A DNA stretch of 64,000 bases. Origin: an uncultured Bdellovibrionales bacterium (GTDB taxonomy: Bacteria; Patescibacteriota; Minisyncoccia; Moranbacterales; UBA2206). Shown in pieces: positions 1 through 55,927 of the stretch; position 1 is the stretch's first letter, and the number at the start of each line of letters is the position of its first letter. The translations under genes were made by a program, and so were the position numbers. The notes under the pieces are model-generated. The model did not search any database and was not told the origin of the DNA. It saw only the letters and a list, made by a program, of their open reading frames with translations. The DNA lies in contig CAYLWX010000002.1 in NCBI GenBank assembly GCA_964387895.1, positions 15,779-79,778 of the forward strand, read 5' to 3'.

Positions 1-154
1 TGTTCGATATTCCGCATTTCATATCTTTCAACATTACTGCTACCGCGACTACCGGCCCTGCCAGCGGACCGCGACCGGCCTCATCAATACCTATAATGTT
101 CCGATAGCCCTTTCTATAAAGTTCCTGCTCTAAAATAAACGTTGATTTCTGCAT
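1..154 (-). CDS. rnhB: ribonuclease HII, N-terminal fragment (gene runs off the window start)
   Basis: Minus-strand translation from the ATG at 154 gives [40 protein letters not shown]. That is the conserved RNase HII N-terminal catalytic motif ([15 protein letters not shown]). Not in the ORF track because of the window edge. Confidence 0.7.
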
Positions 155-313
155 AGTTTTATTATATAGTAAAAGTACCGCATCGGATAATTTTATCTCG
201 CAGCACCCATTGAGCGATCAGGGAAATGGAGATAAGTTAAAATATGAGAAAGTTTAGAGAAATAAATTTAGATTTGTTGTATGCAAAGCTTTTCCACAAG
301 TGGAAAGCTTTTT

Positions 314-396
314 AAATTTCCAATTCCCAATTTCCAATAAATGTCCAATGATTAAATTCCAAAATTTTGGACATTGGAAATTGGGAATTGGAAATT
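314..396. repeat. family-A dyad element: inverted arrays of 7-bp GGAAATT/GGGAATT units around a CCAAAATTTTGG centre
   Basis: Read directly. aaatttccaattcccaatttccaataaatgtccaa ... ttggacattggaaattgggaattggaaatt. Similar copies at 23836-23944 and 36496-36622. Sits between the divergent rnhB and dnaE starts. Confidence 0.75.
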
Positions 397-6224: not shown

Positions 6225-6335
6225 TTGTCTGAACCACTGATTCGCACATGATTACCCTGATTCCACTGATTATTTTATTTATACCAATTAATCAGTGCAA
6301 TCATGAAAATCAGTGATAATCAGTGGTTCAGACAA
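6225..6335. repeat. family-D palindromic element (TTGTCTGAACCACTGATT ... AATCAGTGGTTCAGACAA), empty form
   Basis: ~110-bp near-perfect dyad with internal CACTGATT/AATCAGTG sub-repeats. Lies between the thrS stop and the miaB start. Copies at 14178-14487 (carrying a nested element), 55819-55927 and a degenerate one at 7598-8004. Confidence 0.75.
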
Positions 6336-7612: not shown

Positions 7613-8004
7613 TTTGCTTGATTTAATGATTTCATGATTACACCTCCAAGCAGGTTCAAGCGTCTCACTTGAACCTTGGATTTCTGACAGGCTATAGTCC
7701 GCAAGAAACTAAAAGTTCAGGCGTCTCGCCTGAACTTGTAAGAAGTAAAAAATGATTTTATATTTTTAGGGCTTACGCATTTGACTGTCTTTTGTCATTC
7801 CCGTGTAGACGGGAATCCAGGAGAATACGACATATTTATCCTATAATAATCCAGTTATAGAGCAAAAAGAAACTAAATCAGCTTTGTTATGTATATCGTT
7901 TTCCTCGATGAATCCTGGATCCCCGCCTACGCGGGGATGACAAATGCGTAAGTCCTAATTTTGATTTGTCATTTTGATTTTTGATTTTTACATTTTTCAT
8001 TTTT
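7598..8004. repeat. composite repeat region: truncated family-D arms enclosing two small GCGTCTC-loop hairpins and a reverse-oriented family-E MITE-like element
   Basis: Left D arm ttgtctgaaccatgatttgcttgattt overlaps the last miaB codons. Hairpins at 7648-7678 and 7715-7735. E copy at 7771-7953. A partial D right arm (gtcattttgatttttgattttt) runs into the miaA start. Confidence 0.6.
7771..7953 (-). mobile_element. family-E MITE-like element (GC-rich hairpin terminal inverted repeats), copy 1, reverse orientation
   Basis: TIRs gtcattcccgtgtagacgggaatccagga / tcctggatccccgcctacgcggggatgac. Outer cttacgcatttg / caaatgcgtaag. The internal ~95 bp is ~80% identical (as reverse complement) to copies at 14231-14413 and 21145-21313. 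Confidence 0.5.
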
Positions 8005-8018
8005 ATTATAAAAAAAAT

Positions 8019-8912
8019 ATGAAAAAAATTATCGTCATCCTTGGTCCTACTTCTTCCGGAAAGTCCGATATTGCCATCAAACTTGCCCGGAAATTTAACG
8101 GCGAGATAATTTCGGCTGATTCCCGGCAGGTGTATCGCGGTATGGATTTGGGAACAGGAAAAGTTTCCAAAAAAGAACAGCAACTGGCGCCGCATCATAT
8201 GTTGGATATCGTCAGCCCCAAAACGGACTACAACGCGGCTAAATTCAAAAAGCAAGTGGAAAAAGTTATTGTTGATATTTTGAAAAGAAAAAAATTGCCT
8301 ATCCTCTGTGGCGGAACCGGATTTTGGATTAAAGCTTTGGTGGATGACATAACTTTTCCTAAAGTAAAACCGGATTGGAAACTAAGGAAGAAACTGGAAG
8401 CATATTCTGCTGATAAGTTATTCAGCATGATTAAAAAACTGGACAAATCCAGAGCTGAAACCATTGATCGGCATAATAAAGTGAGATTAACCAGGGCTAT
8501 TGAAATATGCAAATCTATCGGGAAAGTACCACGAGAGAAGAAAGAAGCAAGCAGTAAGCAGTATGCGTTTTTGCAAATCGGCGTTAGTGTTCCAAAAGAA
8601 GAATTGCATGAAAGAATTAAGGCCCGTTTGGAAAAAAGGTTTACGCAAGGGATGATCCGTGAAGTAGAAAAGTTGCACGGACAAAATAACGTAAGCTGGA
8701 AGAGAATGGAATCGTTTGGATTGGAATACTATTGGATCGCGTTATATTTGCAGAAAAAAATTTCCAGGAAAGATTTGAAAGAAAAACTTTTTCAAGACAG
8801 TAAAAATTACGCCAAACGGCAGATGACGTGGTTTCGGAAAGGTGAGAGGATTGTGTGGCTGGGAAATTATGAGGAGATTGAAAAATACGTGAAGATGTTT
8901 TTGGAGAAATAA
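8019..8912 (+). CDS. miaA: tRNA dimethylallyltransferase
   Basis: MKKIIVILGPTSSGKSDIAIKLA P-loop, DSRQVYRGMDLGTGK motif. Typical MiaA. Start moved to the ATG at 8019 (the track ORF starts upstream within the repeat). Confidence 0.85.
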   Translation: MKKIIVILGPTSSGKSDIAIKLARKFNGEIISADSRQVYRGMDLGTGKVSKKEQQLAPHHMLDIVSPKTDYNAAKFKKQVEKVIVDILKRKKLPILCGGTGFWIKALVDDITFPKVKPDWKLRKKLEAYSADKLFSMIKKLDKSRAETIDRHNKVRLTRAIEICKSIGKVPREKKEASSKQYAFLQIGVSVPKEELHERIKARLEKRFTQGMIREVEKLHGQNNVSWKRMESFGLEYYWIALYLQKKISRKDLKEKLFQDSKNYAKRQMTWFRKGERIVWLGNYEEIEKYVKMFLEK

Positions 8913-8931
8913 AAATATTGAGAGCCGGCGC

Positions 8932-8955
8932 TAAATTGCGCCGGCTCTATTTTTA
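8932..8955. terminator. bidirectional rho-independent terminator between convergent miaA and the amidohydrolase gene
   Basis: gagccggcgc-taaatt-gcgccggctc perfect 10-bp stem, flanked by A-run and T-run. Confidence 0.6.
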
Positions 8956-10080
8956 GATTTTAGGAAAATCTCCATTTATACCCTGAAAAACCTTAGTGTC
9001 CCGGTAGAGAGCTCTGGAAACCTGCTCCCTGTCCATATCATTTGGAGTTTCCCCGCAACCGATTTTTGCCCAGAGATCCAGGACATAAAATCGGAGGGAA
9101 TCCGCAAGATACACCAATTCTTCCAATATATTCGCGTCTCCGGTGGGAATAAAAATGTCAGCAATGTTATCCGTCCCTATCCGAATAGGAATTTCCCATT
9201 TAATCATTTCCAGAATTCGCGCGACACTATTATGTATCGGCGCGGAGAGAGATCGTAATTGACGCATGGAAAGAGCGGCTCTGGGGCAGCAAATCACGCC
9301 TATGTGGTATGTTTTCAGCCCTTCCAGAAGTTTCTTGAATCTGTATTCATCGTAGCAGGAAGGGGAAAGCGCGTGGACTGCCCATACCGTTGGATAAAAG
9401 TGACGCTCTATCTCAGGAGAGCCAATCCATCGCACTGCTTCAATGAGGGTTTCTGTTCCATTTTCCCGAGGATCATTCCCCTGGTCAACATGCACGTGAA
9501 CTTCTTTCTTTAGCGCTATGCCTAACTCCAGTACTCTCTTCAAATGAGCATCGTAGCCAATTCTGTCCGGCGCGTCATCTTTTTCCGGCAACGCACCAAT
9601 AAAATCGCACATTCTTGATGCTTCTACAAACACTTCCCACCGGTCTGGATTTACTTCTGGTTTTTTAAATCCAAAGATGGGCTGGGTTCCCACCTGAAAA
9701 TTAATCCTGCCCTTAAATTCTTCCTTGAGTTCCAGTGCTGGAATAATTGCTTTTAGTCCTATATCCGGAGTCGCGTCAATGAGTGAAGCCACTCTCTTTG
9801 TTCCAAAGTGAATCATTCTTTCCAGCTGGCACGCTACTCTGTCTTTAAATTCTTTATATTTATACGCGTCACTTTTGTGAAGCTCTCCGGTAAGATTTTG
9901 CTTTACTCTTAATGGAAGCGTGGCTGCCTCCAATGGGTCAATGCTGGCACGTTCCCAAAACTTTGGATCAAGCGTATTCGCCCGATCCAGATGGGCATGC
10001 GCATTCACCCAACCGCCATACTCTTCCGCCCTGTCCAAAAGTTTTCTCTTGAATGGAGAAAGCGCTTCCTTCCAGTCCAT
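8953..10080 (-). CDS. metal-dependent amidohydrolase, cytosine-deaminase-like
   Basis: WVNAHAHLD metal-binding HxH motif near the N-terminus, HVHVDQ and GTDN motifs. Overall resemblance to CodA/amidohydrolase_3. Substrate not assignable. Confidence 0.55.
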   Translation of the reverse strand: MDWKEALSPFKRKLLDRAEEYGGWVNAHAHLDRANTLDPKFWERASIDPLEAATLPLRVKQNLTGELHKSDAYKYKEFKDRVACQLERMIHFGTKRVASLIDATPDIGLKAIIPALELKEEFKGRINFQVGTQPIFGFKKPEVNPDRWEVFVEASRMCDFIGALPEKDDAPDRIGYDAHLKRVLELGIALKKEVHVHVDQGNDPRENGTETLIEAVRWIGSPEIERHFYPTVWAVHALSPSCYDEYRFKKLLEGLKTYHIGVICCPRAALSMRQLRSLSAPIHNSVARILEMIKWEIPIRIGTDNIADIFIPTGDANILEELVYLADSLRFYVLDLWAKIGCGETPNDMDREQVSRALYRDTKVFQGINGDFPKI

Positions 10081-10326
10081 ATCCTGCCCTTTCTATTCTA
10101 TTGTTAAAAAACAAAAAAGACGTCCCTTTAGACGTCCCTCCCTTGGAAATAGTGATTTCGTTTTCCGCATACTTTCAGAAGTATAGCGAAAATGGTTCGG
10201 GATTGTCAAATCAACTTCCTCTTAATAGTTGAAATCTTTATTTTTCAGAAGCTTATATTTTATACAGTTAGTAGAGATGTTTTTGAAATAAAATTACACT
10301 ATAAAATATTTTCCTGAAACACACTG

Positions 10327-14177: not shown

Positions 14178-14487
14178 TTGTCTGAACCACTGATTATCAC
14201 GTGATTACACATGATTTCACTGATTCATGACTTACGCATTTGTCATCCCCGCGAAGGCGGGGATCCAGGATTCAATGGGCGAGGTGAAATATAAAAATAT
14301 ACTAATTTCGATTCTTTTTACTCTATATCTGGATTATTATTAGATAGCCGTATGGTATACTCCTGGATTCCCGCCTACGCGGGAATGACATAAAAGAAAG
14401 CCAAACGCGTAAGTCATGTGATTTTTATTTTTCACTAAGCCAATCTGTGTAATCAGGAAAATCAGTGCGAATCAGTGGTTCAGACAA
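14178..14487. repeat. family-D palindromic element with a nested family-E element inserted at its centre
   Basis: Left arm 14178-14230 and right arm 14414-14487 together match the 110-bp element at 6225-6335. Between divergent gatB and ndk. Confidence 0.7.
14231..14413 (+). mobile_element. family-E MITE-like element, copy 2
   Basis: cttacgcatttgtcatccccgcgaaggcggggatccagga ... tcctggattcccgcctacgcgggaatgacataaaagaaagccaaacgcgtaag. TIRs are themselves hairpins (ccccgc-gaag-gcgggg). Confidence 0.5.
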
Positions 14488-22516: not shown

Positions 22517-22655
22517 TAAATCCTAAGCACGATCCCGAGTACTCGGGACTAAATCCTAAACAATATCTAAATTAAAATTACCCAAATTAAAAATGTTTTA
22601 GATTTTGGTAATTTGAATTTGTTTAGGATTTAGATATTAAAATTTAGAATTTAAA
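22517..22655. repeat. family-B dyad element (AAATCCT 7-mer inverted arrays around AAAATGTTTT) with embedded TCCCGAGTACTCGGGA palindrome
   Basis: Between the nusG stop and the rplK start. Shares a cgtgcttaggattt segment abutting the start codon with the copy at 51365-51497. Confidence 0.7.
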
Positions 22656-23211: not shown

Positions 23212-23297
23212 TTCATGAAACATGGAACACATAACACGGAACAAAAAATCCAAGATGATTTGTTTCATGCTCTATGTTCCATGTTCTATGTTAGAGT
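23212..23297. repeat. family-C dyad element (CATGGAA/ACATGGA 7-mer inverted arrays)
   Basis: catgaaacatggaacacataacacggaac ... gtttcatgctctatgttccatgttctatg. Between secE and nusG. Confidence 0.65.
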
Positions 23298-23748: not shown

Positions 23749-23835
23749 TGTAGACTGACCGTTATTCTAACAAAAAATAATAATACTGTCCATACCAACC
23801 AGATTATTGTAAAATAAATAGATTTCAAAAATCCT

Positions 23836-23944
23836 AATATCCAAATCCCAATGCCAAATAAAATCCCAAATCCCAATTTCAAAACTTTTGGACATTCTGA
23901 TTTTGGGTTTTATTGGATATTGGGATTTGGGAATTGTAAATTTA
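23836..23944. repeat. family-A dyad element, diverged copy (CCCAAAT/GGGATTT arms, CAAAACTTTTGG centre)
   Basis: Upstream (5') of the minus-strand tRNA-Ala/Ile-secE-nusG block, downstream of murD. Confidence 0.65.
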
Positions 23945-23992
23945 GATCATAGTAAATATCTTCCAGCCACATACATTCACTTTTCTTTATTA

Positions 23993-34293: not shown

Positions 34294-34373
34294 TATGGAA
34301 CATAAAACATGGAACATGGAAAAAAATTTAAAATAATTTGTTCCATGTTATGTGTTCCATGTTTCATGTTTTT
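34294..34373. repeat. family-C dyad element (ACATGGA 7-mer inverted arrays around an A/T centre)
   Basis: ggaacataaaacatggaacatggaaaaaaatttaaaataatttgttccatgttatgtgttccatgtttcatg. Between the hydrogenase large-subunit stop and the HypA-like start. Confidence 0.65.
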
Positions 34374-35632
34374 TAGTGTACCGCGCAACTTATACACGGA
34401 TCATATGCTCTGATAAACGCTCTTAATTTCTTTTCTCTTTCTTTCTCAGGTAAGTCCACCACTTCAGGGATATAGGCTTTTATGTCATCCTCAAGATTGG
34501 ATAAAAATTGAGCGGTAGGAGTAATAATATTCACATTCTTTACGTATCCCTTCGCGTCTACCTCTGTATGATAATAGAGCGTGCCTCTGGGCGCTTCCAC
34601 CGCTGCCACACCAACCCCTTCCCGCGGGATATACTCTTTAGTTACCACTTGATTCAAATCGGCATTTAACAAAAGCCGCAACATTCTTCCTGATTCCTCC
34701 ACCGCGTGAATTACTTCTACCATTTGCGCCAGCACATTATGGAAAGGATTATAGTCCGGAAACTTCCACTGCAAAGAAGACAAATATTTTTCCGCCGCGG
34801 GAGAAAGCGCCATATGGTTTATATTCACTCTCGCGATTGCTCCTGTCATATAACTCTTTCCGTTGTGTTCCACTCTTTTTACTACCTCATGTTGTTTTTG
34901 CAGTTCGGAAAAATTGGATTCGAATTTGTCCACCGGTATATGCAACCCGTCGGAAGACACAATGTCCCCGTCATATACCGCGTACTCGTTTTTTTTCTGG
35001 AGACATACATATTCCGTATTCCGGGAAAAATACGGCAAGGTGATCTTCTTGAAAAATTCTCCCAGCTCCAACGCGTGCCGCAGTGTTTCTTCGCTATGCT
35101 CTATAATCTTTTTCACTGCCTCCGCGTCCGGCACTTTTTTGAATCCTCCTACCTCATTAGTGAGGGGATGCACGACTCGTCCTCCGATCACCCGCACGAT
35201 ATCCATGCCATATTCCCTGATCTTGATCGCTTTTTTGGCTTCTTCAGGATGTTCTTTGACCAATTGCAAATCGTTGCTGATATCCAGAAAATCAGCCAGC
35301 GATAAAAAGAAAAGATGCAGCCCGTGAGAGTGAATAATTTGTCCCAGCTCCAGAACCGCGCGAAGTTGCTCCGTCTCGCGGGTTACCATTACCCCCATTG
35401 CGTTTTCAAGGGATTTTATGGAAGTTAGATTGTGCACTACAGGACAAATCCCGCAAATCCGTTGCGCGATAACCGGCACATCTTTGTAGTGGCGTCCGAC
35501 TAAAATTCCTTCAATCAGGCGAATTCCCTCCTGCACTTCAATTTTTGCTTTGCGCACGTCACCTTTCAACACGCTGGCCATAAACCCCGCGTGCCCTTCC
35601 ATTTTTGCTACATGTTGTATGAGAATATCCAT
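34373..35632 (-). CDS. [NiFe]-hydrogenase large (catalytic) subunit, group-3-like, ending exactly at the DPCxxCxxH motif (no C-terminal extension)
   Basis: N-terminal RICGICPVVH (RxCGxCxxxH) and C-terminal DPCISCAVH-stop. Start set at MDILIQHVAKMEGHAGF (the ORF track extends to 35698, overlapping the small subunit). Confidence 0.8.
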   Translation of the reverse strand: MDILIQHVAKMEGHAGFMASVLKGDVRKAKIEVQEGIRLIEGILVGRHYKDVPVIAQRICGICPVVHNLTSIKSLENAMGVMVTRETEQLRAVLELGQIIHSHGLHLFFLSLADFLDISNDLQLVKEHPEEAKKAIKIREYGMDIVRVIGGRVVHPLTNEVGGFKKVPDAEAVKKIIEHSEETLRHALELGEFFKKITLPYFSRNTEYVCLQKKNEYAVYDGDIVSSDGLHIPVDKFESNFSELQKQHEVVKRVEHNGKSYMTGAIARVNINHMALSPAAEKYLSSLQWKFPDYNPFHNVLAQMVEVIHAVEESGRMLRLLLNADLNQVVTKEYIPREGVGVAAVEAPRGTLYYHTEVDAKGYVKNVNIITPTAQFLSNLEDDIKAYIPEVVDLPEKEREKKLRAFIRAYDPCISCAVH

Positions 35633-35636
35633 AATA

Positions 35637-36452
35637 TTATTCCTGGGTTCTTTCCTCAATAGCATCCCGTAATCCATAAATCTCCGTCGTATTTTCAAAC
35701 TCTTCGTCCGTCATCATATTTTTAAGCGTCGCGCGCATAGCTTTTACATTGCCTTTTGGACGAAGACCGCGGCAGCCCTGGCACATCATTTTGGAACTTG
35801 GACAGACTGCCTGGCAACCTCCCTGGATCATGGGACCAAAACAAGGTTTTTTATCCAGAAGAAGACAGCGATTGCCCAACTTTCTACATTCCACACACAC
35901 TGGCTGATCAGGAATTTCAGGAATCTTTCCTTCGATAATATCCGTCATATAGCGCAAAAATTCTTCACCGTCTATAGGACATCCCGGAAGCGTAAAGTCC
36001 ACTTTCACAAAATTATCCACTTCTTTAATTTCCGGATTAGAAACTCCCTGAATATATTTATAGACATGCTTGATCGTATTCTGCCCTTCCTGGTAATTTT
36101 TGATTTCCGGTATTCCTCCCATCGCCGCGCAATTTCCCAGTACTACCAGCAATTTACTTCGCTGTCTAAGTTGGAGAAGAGTTTTTATATTCTCTTCCGT
36201 CACCGGATTGCCTTCTATAATCCCCACATCGATATTTTCACCTTTATCTTCATCATCTTCCAGTAAACGAAAATCCACTAGTTCCACCTGCTGCAAAAAT
36301 TGTAAAAACCGCTCTCCTAAATCCAGAATGGCAAACTGGCATCCCTCACAGGAAGTAAGACTCACAATCGCAATTTTCGGTTTTGATCGATCTTTGGTTT
36401 TTATTTGTACCGCCAGATTCGAAATCTCCCGCGGATGAATAGATCCGGGCAT
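35637..36452 (-). CDS. [NiFe]-hydrogenase small/delta subunit with C-terminal poly-Cys Fe-S domain
   Basis: IAIVSLTSCEGCQ, GNCAAMGG, LPGCPIDG (complex I 20-kDa/NiFe small-subunit proximal-cluster motifs). C-terminal CVECRK...CFGPMIQGGCQAVCPSSKMMCQGCRG. Start set at 36452 (MPGSIHP). The track's N-terminus runs through the family-A repeat. Confidence 0.75.
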   Translation of the reverse strand: MPGSIHPREISNLAVQIKTKDRSKPKIAIVSLTSCEGCQFAILDLGERFLQFLQQVELVDFRLLEDDEDKGENIDVGIIEGNPVTEENIKTLLQLRQRSKLLVVLGNCAAMGGIPEIKNYQEGQNTIKHVYKYIQGVSNPEIKEVDNFVKVDFTLPGCPIDGEEFLRYMTDIIEGKIPEIPDQPVCVECRKLGNRCLLLDKKPCFGPMIQGGCQAVCPSSKMMCQGCRGLRPKGNVKAMRATLKNMMTDEEFENTTEIYGLRDAIEERTQE

Positions 36453-36495
36453 AATAGAGTTATCGATTATTGAAGCGAGGGTAGACACAATACTT

Positions 36496-36622
36496 AAATT
36501 TCCAATTCCCAAATCCCAATTTCCAATAAATGTCCAATGACCAAATTCCAAAAATTTTGCACATTGGGATTTGGGGTCCCGAGTACCCGGAATTGGAAAT
36601 TAGATATTGGGAATTGGAAATT
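36496..36622. repeat. family-A dyad element, copy with embedded GTCCCGAGTACCCGG palindrome
   Basis: aaatttccaattcccaaatcccaatttccaataaatgtccaatga ... ttgcacattgggatttggggtcccgagtacccggaattggaaattagatattgggaattggaaatt. Between hydG and the hydrogenase small subunit. Confidence 0.7.
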
Positions 36623-36687
36623 ACAGGAAATAAATTAAAAAAATTATAATCCAAACAGGCGGATCAACATATAAATTATATCACACT

Positions 36688-38082
36688 TTAGAAATACAAA
36701 TCTCTCTCTCCCTTCTCAATTCTCCCCAGTCTCTTTTCTGTCTCTTTTCTTACTTTCTTACTCGGTATTTCCCGCAGGTATTTTTTCATAATGTGTTCGC
36801 CTGATTCGCGCTCTTTGGGAGTGGCGTAATCTTCAAGATATTCTTTAAACGTGAGAATCGCGTTGGGGCGGCAGAAATTGTGAATGTTTCCAGGTTTGGC
36901 CAGATCCATAAAAGTCTCTCCGGTTCTTCCGGTTCGATAACAGGCGGTGCAAAAACTGGGAAGCAATTTTTGTTTTAAGATGCCCTGAATAAATTCCGCC
37001 ACGCTTCGATGATCGCTGGTATGAAACTGTTCTAATCTTTGTTCCTTTCCATATCCTCCCGGAGAAGTACGGGAGGCCGCGCTGGTTTGGGAAATGCCGA
37101 TCTTGAAAGCCCGCGAGCGAATTTGCGGCCGCTCGCGAGTGGAAATAATCATGCCGGTATAAGGTACGGCGAGGCGAAGTATCGCAATGATACGAAGCAA
37201 GTCCTGCTCGCTTACATGATACTTCGATTTGAAGGTTACCGTATCGGCCGGTTGCAATCGCGGTACGGAAATGGTATGCGGACCCACGCCGAATTTTTTC
37301 TCGAGATATTTCGCGTGGGAAAGCAGCCCTAATACTTCAAAACGATAATCGTATAATCCAAATAATACTCCCAATCCCACATCATCAATGTCAGCCCGAA
37401 AAGCGTTATCATGGGCAAAAAGCTGCCGCCGAAAATCAGCCTTGGGCCCATAGTGAAGCTTCTCGTAAGTTTCCAGGTGATACGTCTCCTGAAATAACTG
37501 ATACGTTCCGATGCCGGCCTTTTTGAGTTTGCGGTAATTTTCCACCGAAGTCGCGGCAATATTCACGTTCACTCTTCTGATAGCGCCGTTTTTTGATTTA
37601 GTTCCATAAATAGTTCTGATCACTTTCACTACATAATCAATAGTATTTTCTCCGGGATGCTCTCCAAATTCGAGCAGTAACCGCTTATGTCCCATATCCT
37701 CCAGTATTTTTACCTGTTCTTGTATCTCTTTTAAGGTAAGTTTTTTTCTCAGCGCCTTGTTACGCGCGTGAAACCCGCAATATTCGCAATCGTTCACGCA
37801 AAAACTGGAAATGTATAACGGGGCAAACAGCACCAGCCGTTCGCCGTATATTTCATCCTTGATCCTGCCCGCGACCTGGAATATTTCTTTCCAAAGCGCC
37901 TTGTCTTCGACCTGCAATAAATATCCGGCTTCCCTAAGATTCAGCCCCTTCTTTTTTTTAGCCTTTTCAAGCACAGAGCGCACCACTTCCTGTGAAGGGT
38001 TTTGCGTAGCACGTAATATAGCAACTATTTTTTTCTCGTTGATTATTGTTTTAATGTCAGACATAAAAAAATAATACCTCAT
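36688..38082 (-). CDS. hydG: [FeFe]-hydrogenase maturase HydG-like radical SAM tyrosine lyase
   Basis: Radical SAM CVNDCEYCGF (Cx3Cx2C) and a C-terminal CTAC-x22-C (Cx2Cx22C) auxiliary-cluster motif that distinguishes HydG from ThiH. ~460 aa. Confidence 0.7.
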   Translation of the reverse strand: MRYYFFMSDIKTIINEKKIVAILRATQNPSQEVVRSVLEKAKKKKGLNLREAGYLLQVEDKALWKEIFQVAGRIKDEIYGERLVLFAPLYISSFCVNDCEYCGFHARNKALRKKLTLKEIQEQVKILEDMGHKRLLLEFGEHPGENTIDYVVKVIRTIYGTKSKNGAIRRVNVNIAATSVENYRKLKKAGIGTYQLFQETYHLETYEKLHYGPKADFRRQLFAHDNAFRADIDDVGLGVLFGLYDYRFEVLGLLSHAKYLEKKFGVGPHTISVPRLQPADTVTFKSKYHVSEQDLLRIIAILRLAVPYTGMIISTRERPQIRSRAFKIGISQTSAASRTSPGGYGKEQRLEQFHTSDHRSVAEFIQGILKQKLLPSFCTACYRTGRTGETFMDLAKPGNIHNFCRPNAILTFKEYLEDYATPKERESGEHIMKKYLREIPSKKVRKETEKRLGRIEKGERDLYF

Positions 38083-51340: not shown

Positions 51341-51364
51341 ACTTTTGTAGTTTCTATTTTAGTA

Positions 51365-51497
51365 AAATCCTAAGCACGAAATCCTAAATCCTAAACAAAT
51401 TCAAATCACCAAAATACAGAAACTCAAAACGTTTTGAATTTAAACTATTTGTATTTTGAATTTGTTTAGTATTTAGATATTCGGATTTAGGATTTTA
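51365..51497. repeat. family-B dyad element (AAATCCT inverted arrays, AAAACGTTTT centre)
   Basis: aaatcctaagcacgaaatcctaaatcctaaacaaattcaaat ... atttgaatttgtttagtatttagatattcggatttaggattt. Immediately 5' of tpiA. Confidence 0.7.
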
Positions 51498-55818: not shown

Positions 55819-55927
55819 TGTGTCAGAACCACTGATTCGCACGTGATTATCCTGATTTCACTGATTTTATTTTTCATCAGACTAATCTGTGTAATCAGGA
55901 AAATCAGTGATAATCAGTGGTTCTGAT
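55819..55927. repeat. family-D palindromic element, empty form
   Basis: gtcagaaccactgattcgcacgtgattatcctgatttcactgatt ... aatcaggaaaatcagtgataatcagtggttctgat. Fills the secY-adk intergenic space. Confidence 0.7.

What the first reader, a model, noticed from the sequence alone, without database searches (positions are those of the whole stretch)
314..396. Family-A long dyad element made of inverted arrays of 7-bp GGAAATT/GGGAATT units, present three times at operon 5' ends
Seen: copies at 314-396 (between divergent rnhB and dnaE), 23836-23944 (5' of the tRNA-Ala/Ile-secE-nusG block) and 36496-36622 (between hydG and the hydrogenase small subunit). Each has 3-4 tandem 7-mers in each arm around a CCAAAATTTTGG-like A4T4 centre. 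The element abuts or overlaps start codons, so the ORF caller reads through it (the dnaE 367 start and the small-subunit 36551 start). Inference: it is too long and too close to start codons for a simple terminator. It could be a promoter-embedded binding array, a DNA-bending UP-like element, or an RNase III-type processing hairpin in the 5' UTR.
Basis: seen in the sequence. Interest (0 to 1): 0.55.

Follow-up and report, generated by a model that had tools for sequence, protein, structure and literature searches.

The report
Dispersed heptamer-built hairpin repeat, Moranbacteria
The three long palindromes are real copies of one dispersed non-coding repeat in a Candidatus Moranbacteria genome, with arms made of tandem 7-base units; related genomes often lack it at the same sites, so it looks like tolerated repeat DNA rather than a dedicated switch at operon starts.

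Summary
Three long dyads lie at 315-396, 23819-23946 and 36497-36622. Their arms are tandem GGRAWTT heptamers around an A/T palindromic centre, far beyond chance, and all three lie in non-coding DNA. The host is a Candidatus Moranbacteria (Patescibacteria/CPR) genome.

The copies are homologous over their whole length, including a non-periodic core, so they share one origin. A fourth copy sits in an unrelated metagenome contig between trxA and trxB. No Rfam family matches and there is no target-site duplication.

Placement is not specific to 5' ends. Copy 1 lies in the probable dnaE 5' UTR. Copy 2 lies upstream of a conserved tRNA promoter and 46 nt after murD. Copy 3 lies 65 nt after hydG. 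Orientation relative to transcription is mixed.

Related genomes vary at the same sites. The tRNA site is empty in one relative. The dnaE site is empty in two relatives and holds degraded heptamer dyads in two others.

My best reading is a REPIN/MITE-like palindromic repeat whose arms are a heptamer microsatellite. It closely resembles the inverted GGGAATC-type arrays described in Xanthomonas. Any effect probably comes from a transcribed double-stranded RNA hairpin. It is a new member of a known kind, of moderate to low interest.

The parts
315..396 (.). Family A copy 1. Outer stem 315-336 / 375-396, inner stem 341-348 / 367-374, palindromic centre CCAAAATTTTGG at 359-370. It ends 12 nt before the dnaE ATG at 409.
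23819..23946 (.). Family A copy 2, more diverged (AAATCCC/GGGATTT units). It lies 46 nt after the murD stop (23993, - strand) and 26 nt upstream of the -35 hexamer of the tRNA-Ala/Ile promoter.
36497..36622 (.). Family A copy 3. It equals copy 1 plus one extra heptamer in the left arm and about 40 nt extra in the right arm. It lies 65 nt after the hydG stop (36688, - strand) and at least 45 nt upstream of the NiFe small-subunit start (36452 or further downstream).
334..351 (+). Non-periodic core CCAATAAATGTCCAATGA. It is identical in copy 3 (36523-36540) and in L127 (798-815). The exact match between copies 1 and 3 extends to 27 nt.
142..170 (+). Context: promoter-like site TTGATT-17-TATAGT. 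It would place copy 1 inside the dnaE 5' UTR.
193..235 (+). Context: conserved structured leader upstream of dnaE. It has 14 predicted pairs, 5 of them with compensatory changes across 5 genomes, and its 3' strand carries an SD-like GGAG.
244..315 (+). Context: short non-conserved upstream ORF (23 codons). Its TAA stop (313-315) overlaps the first base of copy 1. It contains a terminator-like hairpin at 285-311 followed by a T run.
23764..23792 (-). Context: tRNA-Ala/Ile promoter TGGACA-17-TAGAAT with a TG extension. It is conserved in L126, which lacks the element.

Best explanation
Family A is a dispersed, non-coding palindromic repeat of about 85-130 bp in a Candidatus Moranbacteria genome, REPIN/MITE-like in behaviour.

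Shown:
- The copies share one origin.
- They sit only in non-coding DNA.
- They are gained or lost between related genomes.
- They differ from each other in heptamer number.
- They have no fixed position or orientation relative to promoters or genes.

Inferred:
- The family spreads by an unidentified trans-acting function or by recombination or gene conversion, without target-site duplication.
- The arms are a CCAAT-containing heptamer microsatellite that grows and shrinks by slipped-strand mispairing.
- The palindrome is kept or renewed by copying between copies rather than by selection at each site.
- When transcribed, the element folds into a 30-50 bp double-stranded RNA stem. This would happen in the dnaE 5' UTR for copy 1 and in inter-cistronic or 3' RNA for copies 2 and 3 and for L127.
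- Its main physiological effect, if any, is therefore on mRNA processing or stability (RNase III-type cleavage), not on promoter control.
For: - Whole-length homology of four copies, with similarity ending at the dyad edges. Exact shared stretches of 25-27 nt cover the non-heptamer core.
- A further copy lies in an unrelated context, trxA|trxB in metagenome contig L127, with a second related dyad after trxB.
- All 11 dyads in the window lie in the 11.4% of DNA that is non-coding.
- Unit number differs between copies.
- The copy 2 site is empty in L126, with both flanks and the promoter alignable.
- The dnaE site has no dyad in L121 (89% DnaE identity) or L130 (76%). It holds degraded heptamer dyads in L129 (z -3.8) and L122 (z -2.5).
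- The density of period-7 arrays ranges from 0 to 17 per 10 kb among Moranbacteria loci.
- Folding energies show no sense-strand bias: sense is better in 5 of 11 elements.
- No Rfam family matches. No promoter or terminator consensus lies in the element.
- Published precedent: inverted pairs of GGGAATC/(GGGANTN)n heptamer arrays in Xanthomonas are 89-93% intergenic (PMC4692102).
Against: - No transposase or RAYT gene and no insertion mechanism were identified. Only a 64-kb window could be searched.
- There are no target-site duplications.
- A heptamer dyad recurs at the same place, immediately 5' of the dnaE ATG, in three genomes about 77-78% identical in DnaE. This could mean selection at that site rather than drift or a hot spot.
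- The perfect 24/24 arms of copy 1 could reflect selection for the hairpin instead of youth.
- Only three copies in the window and two elsewhere were seen, so statistics on position and orientation are weak.
Confidence: 0.6

Rival explanations
1. A selected RNA hairpin. The element is kept because the transcribed stem acts as an RNase III processing site, mRNA stabiliser, insulator or attenuator between transcription units, and in the dnaE leader as part of a regulatory 5' UTR.
For: - The stems are long and very stable.
- An RNase III gene lies next to the orthologous locus in relatives.
- Copy 1 lies within a conserved leader, upstream ORF and terminator-like architecture.
- Heptamer dyads sit at the same dnaE site in L129 and L122.
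- All copies lie 0-65 nt after a stop codon.
Against: - The dyad is absent at the orthologous sites in L121, L130 and L126 while the flanking genes and the promoter stay intact.
- The hairpins in L129 and L122 are decaying.
- Orientation is mixed and there is no sense-strand folding bias.
- A strong terminator in the 5' UTR of an essential dnaE, or between secE and nusG for the sister family C, would be harmful. This point is inference.
Confidence: 0.2
2. A DNA-level element. The inverted heptamer arrays are binding sites for a nucleoid-associated protein, gyrase or a regulator, or form cruciforms or UP-like elements that tune nearby promoters.
For: - Regularly spaced CCAAT/ATTGG units sit around an A/T centre.
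- Copy 2 ends 26 nt upstream of a -35 hexamer.
- BIME-type repeats in enterobacteria bind IHF and gyrase (established knowledge, not tested here).
Against: - Position relative to promoters is inconsistent. Copy 1 is downstream of its promoter, and no promoter was found near copy 3.
- The same tRNA promoter works without the element in L126.
- The 7-bp phasing does not add up to planar bending (inference).
- No candidate binding protein is known.
Confidence: 0.08
3. Independent local microsatellite growth. Each dyad arose in place by polymerase slippage and inverted duplication, and the copies resemble each other only by convergence.
For: - Heptamer repeats are over-represented in many bacteria, and slippage has been proposed as the cause (PMC4692102).
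- GGRWWTT arrays occur in many phyla.
- Unit number varies between copies.
Against: - Copies 1 and 3 and L127 share a 25-27 nt exact non-periodic core and common termini. Convergence cannot give this.
- Arrays in other CPR genomes are mostly solitary direct arrays.
Confidence: 0.07
4. G-quadruplex-forming repeats, as proposed for the Xanthomonas and Nostoc G-rich heptamers.
For: The unit GGGAATT resembles GGGAATC.
Against: No copy reaches the four G3 tracts on one strand that a G4 needs: copy 1 has one GGG run and copies 2 and 3 have three each. The competing hairpin is far more stable.
Confidence: 0.02

Closest known systems
Inverted pairs of G-rich heptamer repeats, GGGAATC/(GGGANTN)n, in Xanthomonas campestris and X. 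axonopodis (Rehm et al. 2015, PLoS One, PMC4692102)
   Same: - Tandem heptamers with nearly the same unit (GGGANTN against GG[G/A]A[A/T]TT).
- Two arrays on opposite strands close together, able to form stem-loops. There are 70-75 such pairs per Xanthomonas genome.
- About 90% are intergenic, mostly between co-directional genes.
- Length and sequence vary between related species, and no function is known.
   Different: - The host is a CPR bacterium with about 42% G+C.
- The units are too G-poor for G-quadruplexes.
- The copies share a conserved non-periodic core and A/T palindromic centre, so they form a true dispersed family. That paper does not describe this for Xanthomonas.
REP/BIME elements and REPINs (Bertels and Rainey 2011, PMC3116915)
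   Same: - Extragenic.
- Two inverted halves forming a long hairpin.
- Many dispersed copies, with presence or absence differing between relatives.
- No target-site duplication.
   Different: - REP halves are single G+C-rich imperfect palindromes, not tandem heptamer arrays.
- REPINs are defined by an associated RAYT transposase, which was not found and could not be searched for here.
Bacterial MITEs (Correia, RUP, BOX, ERIC and similar)
   Same: Small, non-coding, dispersed, intergenic, with hairpin potential, and able to be co-transcribed and processed.
   Different: There is no target-site duplication and no discrete terminal inverted repeats distinct from the body. The whole element is the inverted repeat, and no parent IS is known.
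Cyanobacterial STRR heptamer repeats and TAACTGA heptamer arrays of Beggiatoaceae, Cyanobacteria and Bacteroidetes (MacGregor 2015, PMC4679880)
   Same: - Tandem 7-nt units in intergenic DNA.
- Some arrays end next to start codons.
- Patchy phylogenetic distribution, with shorter repeat-free spacers in close relatives.
   Different: Those are direct arrays, oriented relative to the downstream gene. Only one inverted case was noted in the Guaymas Maribeggiatoa genome. Family A is always a dyad and has mixed orientation.
Intrinsic (Rho-independent) terminators
   Same: A hairpin located after stop codons in 3 of 4 copies.
   Different: The stem is 30-50 bp and A/T-rich (28-37% G+C), there is no U tract, and one copy lies in the 5' UTR of dnaE. 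Canonical terminators exist elsewhere in the window, for example 8921-8948.

Membership tests
Inverted heptamer repeat pairs (Xanthomonas GGGAATC type) | At least 2 tandem heptamers fitting GGGANTN | tested here: met
   The units are GGGAATT, GGAAATT and GGGATTT. There are 16 double-unit hits against 1.8 expected, and TRF finds period 7.
Inverted heptamer repeat pairs (Xanthomonas GGGAATC type) | Two arrays on opposite strands in convergent orientation close together | tested here: met
   the arms are 2-64 nt apart in all three copies.
Inverted heptamer repeat pairs (Xanthomonas GGGAATC type) | Predominantly intergenic | tested here: met
   all three copies are in non-coding DNA, which is 11.4% of the window.
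G-quadruplex-forming repeats | At least 4 G3 tracts with short loops on one strand | tested here: not met
   there are 1, 3 and 3 GGG runs per copy.
REP/REPIN | Extragenic doublet of inverted repeats forming a hairpin, in many dispersed copies | tested here: inconclusive
   The hairpin, extragenic location and dispersal are met. Genome-wide copy number is unknown because only 64 kb was available.
REP/REPIN | Cognate RAYT (IS200/IS605-like Y1 transposase) gene flanked by the repeats | not testable with these tools
MITE | Target-site duplication flanking each copy | tested here: not met
   there is no consistent direct repeat at the edges of the four aligned copies.
MITE | Terminal inverted repeats shared with an autonomous IS | not tested
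   No IS with matching ends was seen in the window, and the rest of the genome was not available.
Intrinsic terminator | G+C-rich stem of 5-20 bp followed by a T run | tested here: not met
   there is no terminator-like site at any copy, and G+C is 28-37%.
Any Rfam 15 RNA family | Covariance-model score at or above the gathering threshold | tested here: not met
   only plant miRNA-precursor look-alikes appear, at 27-34 bits against thresholds of 74-102.
Sigma-70 promoter-embedded operator or UP element | Fixed position relative to -35/-10 hexamers | tested here: not met
   copy 1 is downstream of its promoter, copy 2 is upstream of one, and copy 3 has none nearby. The promoter is conserved without the element in L126.

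The most novel reading that the evidence does not exclude
Heptamer-array dyads with a CCAAT-type unit could form one horizontally spreading class of self-propagating 'palindromic microsatellite' elements.
- Related forms occur in Moranbacteria, Uhrbacteria (L034, L057), Chloroflexi, Bacteroidota, Clostridia and Xanthomonas.
- A still unknown mechanism would extend both arms in 7-nt register and copy the element to new intergenic sites.
- In Moranbacteria the class would have been co-opted as an RNase III-processed module in the 5' UTR of dnaE, downstream of a previously undescribed structured leader.
Probability: 0.15. Interest if true: 0.6.

Novelty: new member of a known kind. Interest (0 to 1): 0.33.

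Why it matters
- It explains why gene callers over-extend the starts of dnaE, nusG and the hydrogenase small subunit in this genome.
- It shows that even a very small CPR genome carries recently active repeat families.
- It adds a CPR example to the unexplained excess of heptamer repeats, and of their inverted pairs, in bacteria. In this example the copies share a core, so dispersal can be told apart from local slippage.
- If the hairpins are processed in RNA, they would affect expression of essential genes such as dnaE.

Tried and rejected
- Exact-protein look-ups of the window's own DnaE, HydG and the deposited DnaE found nothing. No genome-wide census was therefore possible.
These were mostly cyanobacterial and CPR tandem arrays, and the source genome was not among them.
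- Only 9 of the 120 loci and 1 of 41 viral loci showed a dyad by my criterion.
- I tested whether each element's arms fit each other better than the arms of other elements. The result was inconclusive, because all arms are built from similar units and cross-pair equally well.
- A sense-versus-antisense folding test for RNA-level selection showed no bias.
- The Rfam search at permissive E-values gave only spurious miRNA-precursor hits.
- G-quadruplex, canonical terminator and embedded promoter were each tested and rejected.
- The copy 3 site could not be compared, because the relative L131 has a different upstream gene.
- Literature searches found no description of such elements in CPR bacteria.

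Full report
**Observation**

The three dyads are present as described.
- Copy 1 (315-396) has perfectly complementary 24-nt outer arms and an 8-bp inner stem around the exact palindrome CCAAAATTTTGG (359-370).
- Copy 2 extends from about 23819 to 23946, with 60-nt arms that are 73% complementary.
- Copy 3 runs from 36497 to 36622, with 31-nt outer arms that are 87% complementary and a second inner stem.

Pairs of GGRAWTT units occur 16 times against 1.8 expected, and all 16 lie inside the three copies. TRF finds period-7 arrays of 3.4 to 7.3 units in each arm. Either strand folds to -36 to -51 kcal/mol, with z-scores from -2.5 to -8.5. The feature is real and far from chance.

**Organism and context**

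DnaE, NusG and the hydrogenase small subunit all have their best hits in Candidatus Moranbacteria/Moraniibacteriota (Patescibacteria, CPR).

The deposited gene calls start inside the elements. DnaE starts at TTG 388 (MEITAIP before the conserved MSKFTHLH), and the small subunit starts at 36512. Homologues start at the positions equivalent to 409 and to 36452 or further downstream. The read-through remark is therefore correct.

**One family of common origin**

Copies 1, 2 and 3 align over their whole length, and similarity stops at the dyad edges. Copies 1 and 3 share an exact 27-mer that covers a non-periodic core, CCAATAAATGTCCAATGA.

A scan of JGI metagenomes with that core found one further true copy. 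It lies in contig L127 between the trxA stop and the trxB start, and it shares its left and right termini with copy 2. A second related dyad follows trxB in L127.

This rules out independent local growth of each copy. The copies still differ in heptamer number, 3 against 4 units on the left and 3 against about 6 on the right between copies 1 and 3. A microsatellite-type process therefore acts on top of dispersal. No target-site duplication is visible.

**Part of a wider phenomenon in this genome**

The window holds at least four other dyad families. Three of them, B, C and D, have tandemly repeated arms of period 7 or 9-10. All 11 dyads lie in the 11.4% of the window that is non-coding.

The density of period-7 arrays is 1.9 per 10 kb in the window. 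It is 0 in 22.8 kb from the closest available population (L121, L125, L131) and up to 17 per 10 kb in L127. These are lineage-specific expansions.

**Position relative to genes and signals**

- Copy 1 lies between the divergent rnhB and dnaE genes, but the region has more structure than that. It contains a promoter-like site at 142-170. After it comes a conserved structured leader at 193-235, with 14 pairs, 5 of them compensatory across five genomes. A short non-conserved upstream ORF at 244-315 follows, containing a terminator-like hairpin at 285-311. Then come the dyad and, 12 nt later, the dnaE ATG. Copy 1 is therefore most probably transcribed as part of the dnaE 5' UTR (inference).
- Copy 2 lies 46 nt after the murD stop and ends 26 nt upstream of the -35 of a TGGACA-17-TAGAAT promoter for tRNA-Ala/Ile.
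- Copy 3 lies 65 nt after the hydG stop and at least 45 nt before the small-subunit start. No promoter or terminator consensus is nearby.

The asymmetric core is on the + strand in all three window copies, while the flanking genes are on + for copy 1 and on - for copies 2 and 3. In L127 the core is co-oriented with its genes. Orientation relative to transcription is thus two forward and two reverse. Folding energies show no sense-strand advantage: sense is better in 5 of 11 elements. There is no consistent '5'-end' placement.

**Comparison with relatives**

- At the copy 2 site, L126 has the same gene order (amidohydrolase, murD, tRNA-Ala, tRNA-Ile, secE, nusG, rplK). Its murD-tRNA spacer is 59 nt, the promoter is conserved and there is no dyad. 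Its secE-nusG and nusG-rplK spacers are 1 and 12 nt, where the window carries dyads C1 and B1.
- At the dnaE site, L121 (89% DnaE identity) has an 85-bp spacer in which the leader is followed directly by the dnaE ATG. L130 (76%) has the leader, an upstream ORF and a terminator-like hairpin but no heptamer dyad. L129 (77%) and L122 (78%) each have a heptamer dyad ending 0-13 nt before the ATG, with different units and weaker folds (z -3.8 and -2.5).
- The copy 3 site is not syntenic in L131.

The element is dispensable at every site tested. At the dnaE site it is either old and decaying in some lineages, lost in others and renewed in the window, or it was inserted repeatedly at a favoured spot.

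**What it is not**

- No Rfam family matches.
- It is not a canonical terminator, and no promoter is embedded in it.
- It is not G4-capable.
- A strong unconditional terminator would not be tolerated in front of dnaE, or between secE and nusG for family C (inference).
- A 7-bp repeat is out of phase with the DNA helix, so additive bending is unlikely (inference).

**Closest known**

Rehm et al. 2015 (PMC4692102) described about 185 GGGAATC/(GGGANTN)n heptamer arrays per Xanthomonas genome. These are 89-93% intergenic. In 70-75 cases two arrays lie in convergent orientation and can form stem-loops. The arrays vary between closely related species, and their function is unknown. That paper also cites the general excess of heptamer repeats in bacteria and the polymerase-slippage idea.

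My scan shows GGRWWTT arrays in cyanobacteria, many CPR lineages, Chloroflexi, Bacteroidota and Xanthomonas. Dyad forms occur in Uhrbacteria, Chloroflexi, Flavobacterium, Saprospiraceae and a Clostridia MAG. In other CPR genomes the arrays are mostly solitary.

TAACTGA arrays (PMC4679880) and cyanobacterial STRRs are direct-repeat relatives. REPINs and MITEs are the closest behavioural analogues, but their defining features could not be tested (RAYT) or were not met (target-site duplication).

**Verdict**

The best explanation is a dispersed, recently active palindromic repeat whose arms are a heptamer microsatellite. It is tolerated in intergenic DNA and probably matters only as a transcribed double-stranded RNA stem (confidence 0.6). 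It is a new member of a known but poorly understood kind. I found no paper describing it in CPR bacteria.

Noticed in passing
window 193-235 (also L121 ~7721-7763, and L122, L129, L130 upstream of dnaE): A conserved stem-loop leader lies upstream of dnaE in five Moranbacteria. It has 14 predicted pairs, 5 with compensatory double changes, and strongly conserved loops. Its 3' strand is SD-like and is followed by an ATG. No Rfam hit. It is a candidate new cis-regulatory RNA.
   Followed up: partly
window 244-315 and 285-311: A short non-conserved upstream ORF and a terminator-like hairpin with a T run lie between the leader and dnaE. Analogous upstream ORFs with hairpins occur in L129 and L130. 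In L121 the same ATG is the dnaE start itself. The arrangement looks like an attenuator, or like a remnant of a duplicated start region.
   Followed up: partly
window 22549-22633, 51363-51497 (B); 23214-23290, 34295-34372 (C); 6225-6335, 55823-55926 (D); 7766-7958, 14226-14418 (E): Four more dyad families, two copies each, all in non-coding DNA. B and C have period-7 arms and D has period 9-10 arms. E is 193 nt with G+C-rich ends and looks MITE-like. C1 sits between secE and nusG, and B1 between nusG and rplK, where relative L126 has spacers of 1 and 12 nt.
   Followed up: partly
window 388, 36512, 23237: The deposited protein starts for DnaE (1177 aa), the NiFe small subunit (291 aa) and NusG (191 aa against the usual 181) all read into dyad elements. 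They are probably 7, at least 20 and 10 codons too long.
   Followed up: yes
L062 5840-5863, L015 284-314, L130 1123-1153: Perfect GGAAATT/TTGGAAA heptamer arrays in other CPR genomes appear to lie inside open reading frames. In L130 the array lies inside the called rnhB gene. Since 3 x 7 nt equals 7 codons, such arrays could encode peptide repeats.
   Followed up: no
window ~8900-10100: Gene orientation switches from + to - and cumulative GC skew peaks here. A canonical bidirectional terminator lies at 8921-8948. This is possibly a replication terminus or simply a convergent gene pair.
   Followed up: no
window 34373-38082; L131: HydG, an [FeFe]-hydrogenase maturase, lies directly upstream of a group-3b-like [NiFe] hydrogenase small and large subunit pair. 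In relative L131 the small subunit is instead preceded, 9 nt away, by a 678-aa protein with no Pfam hit. Copy 3 therefore sits at a junction that is not syntenic.
   Followed up: no
L034 645-765 and L057 1425-1515 (Candidatus Uhrbacteria, about 49% G+C): These dyads strongly resemble Family A. They share exact stretches of 20-21 nt with copies 2 and 3 and have similar CAATGACCAA / TTGGTCATTGG inner motifs. This hints at spread or common constraint across CPR classes.
   Followed up: partly
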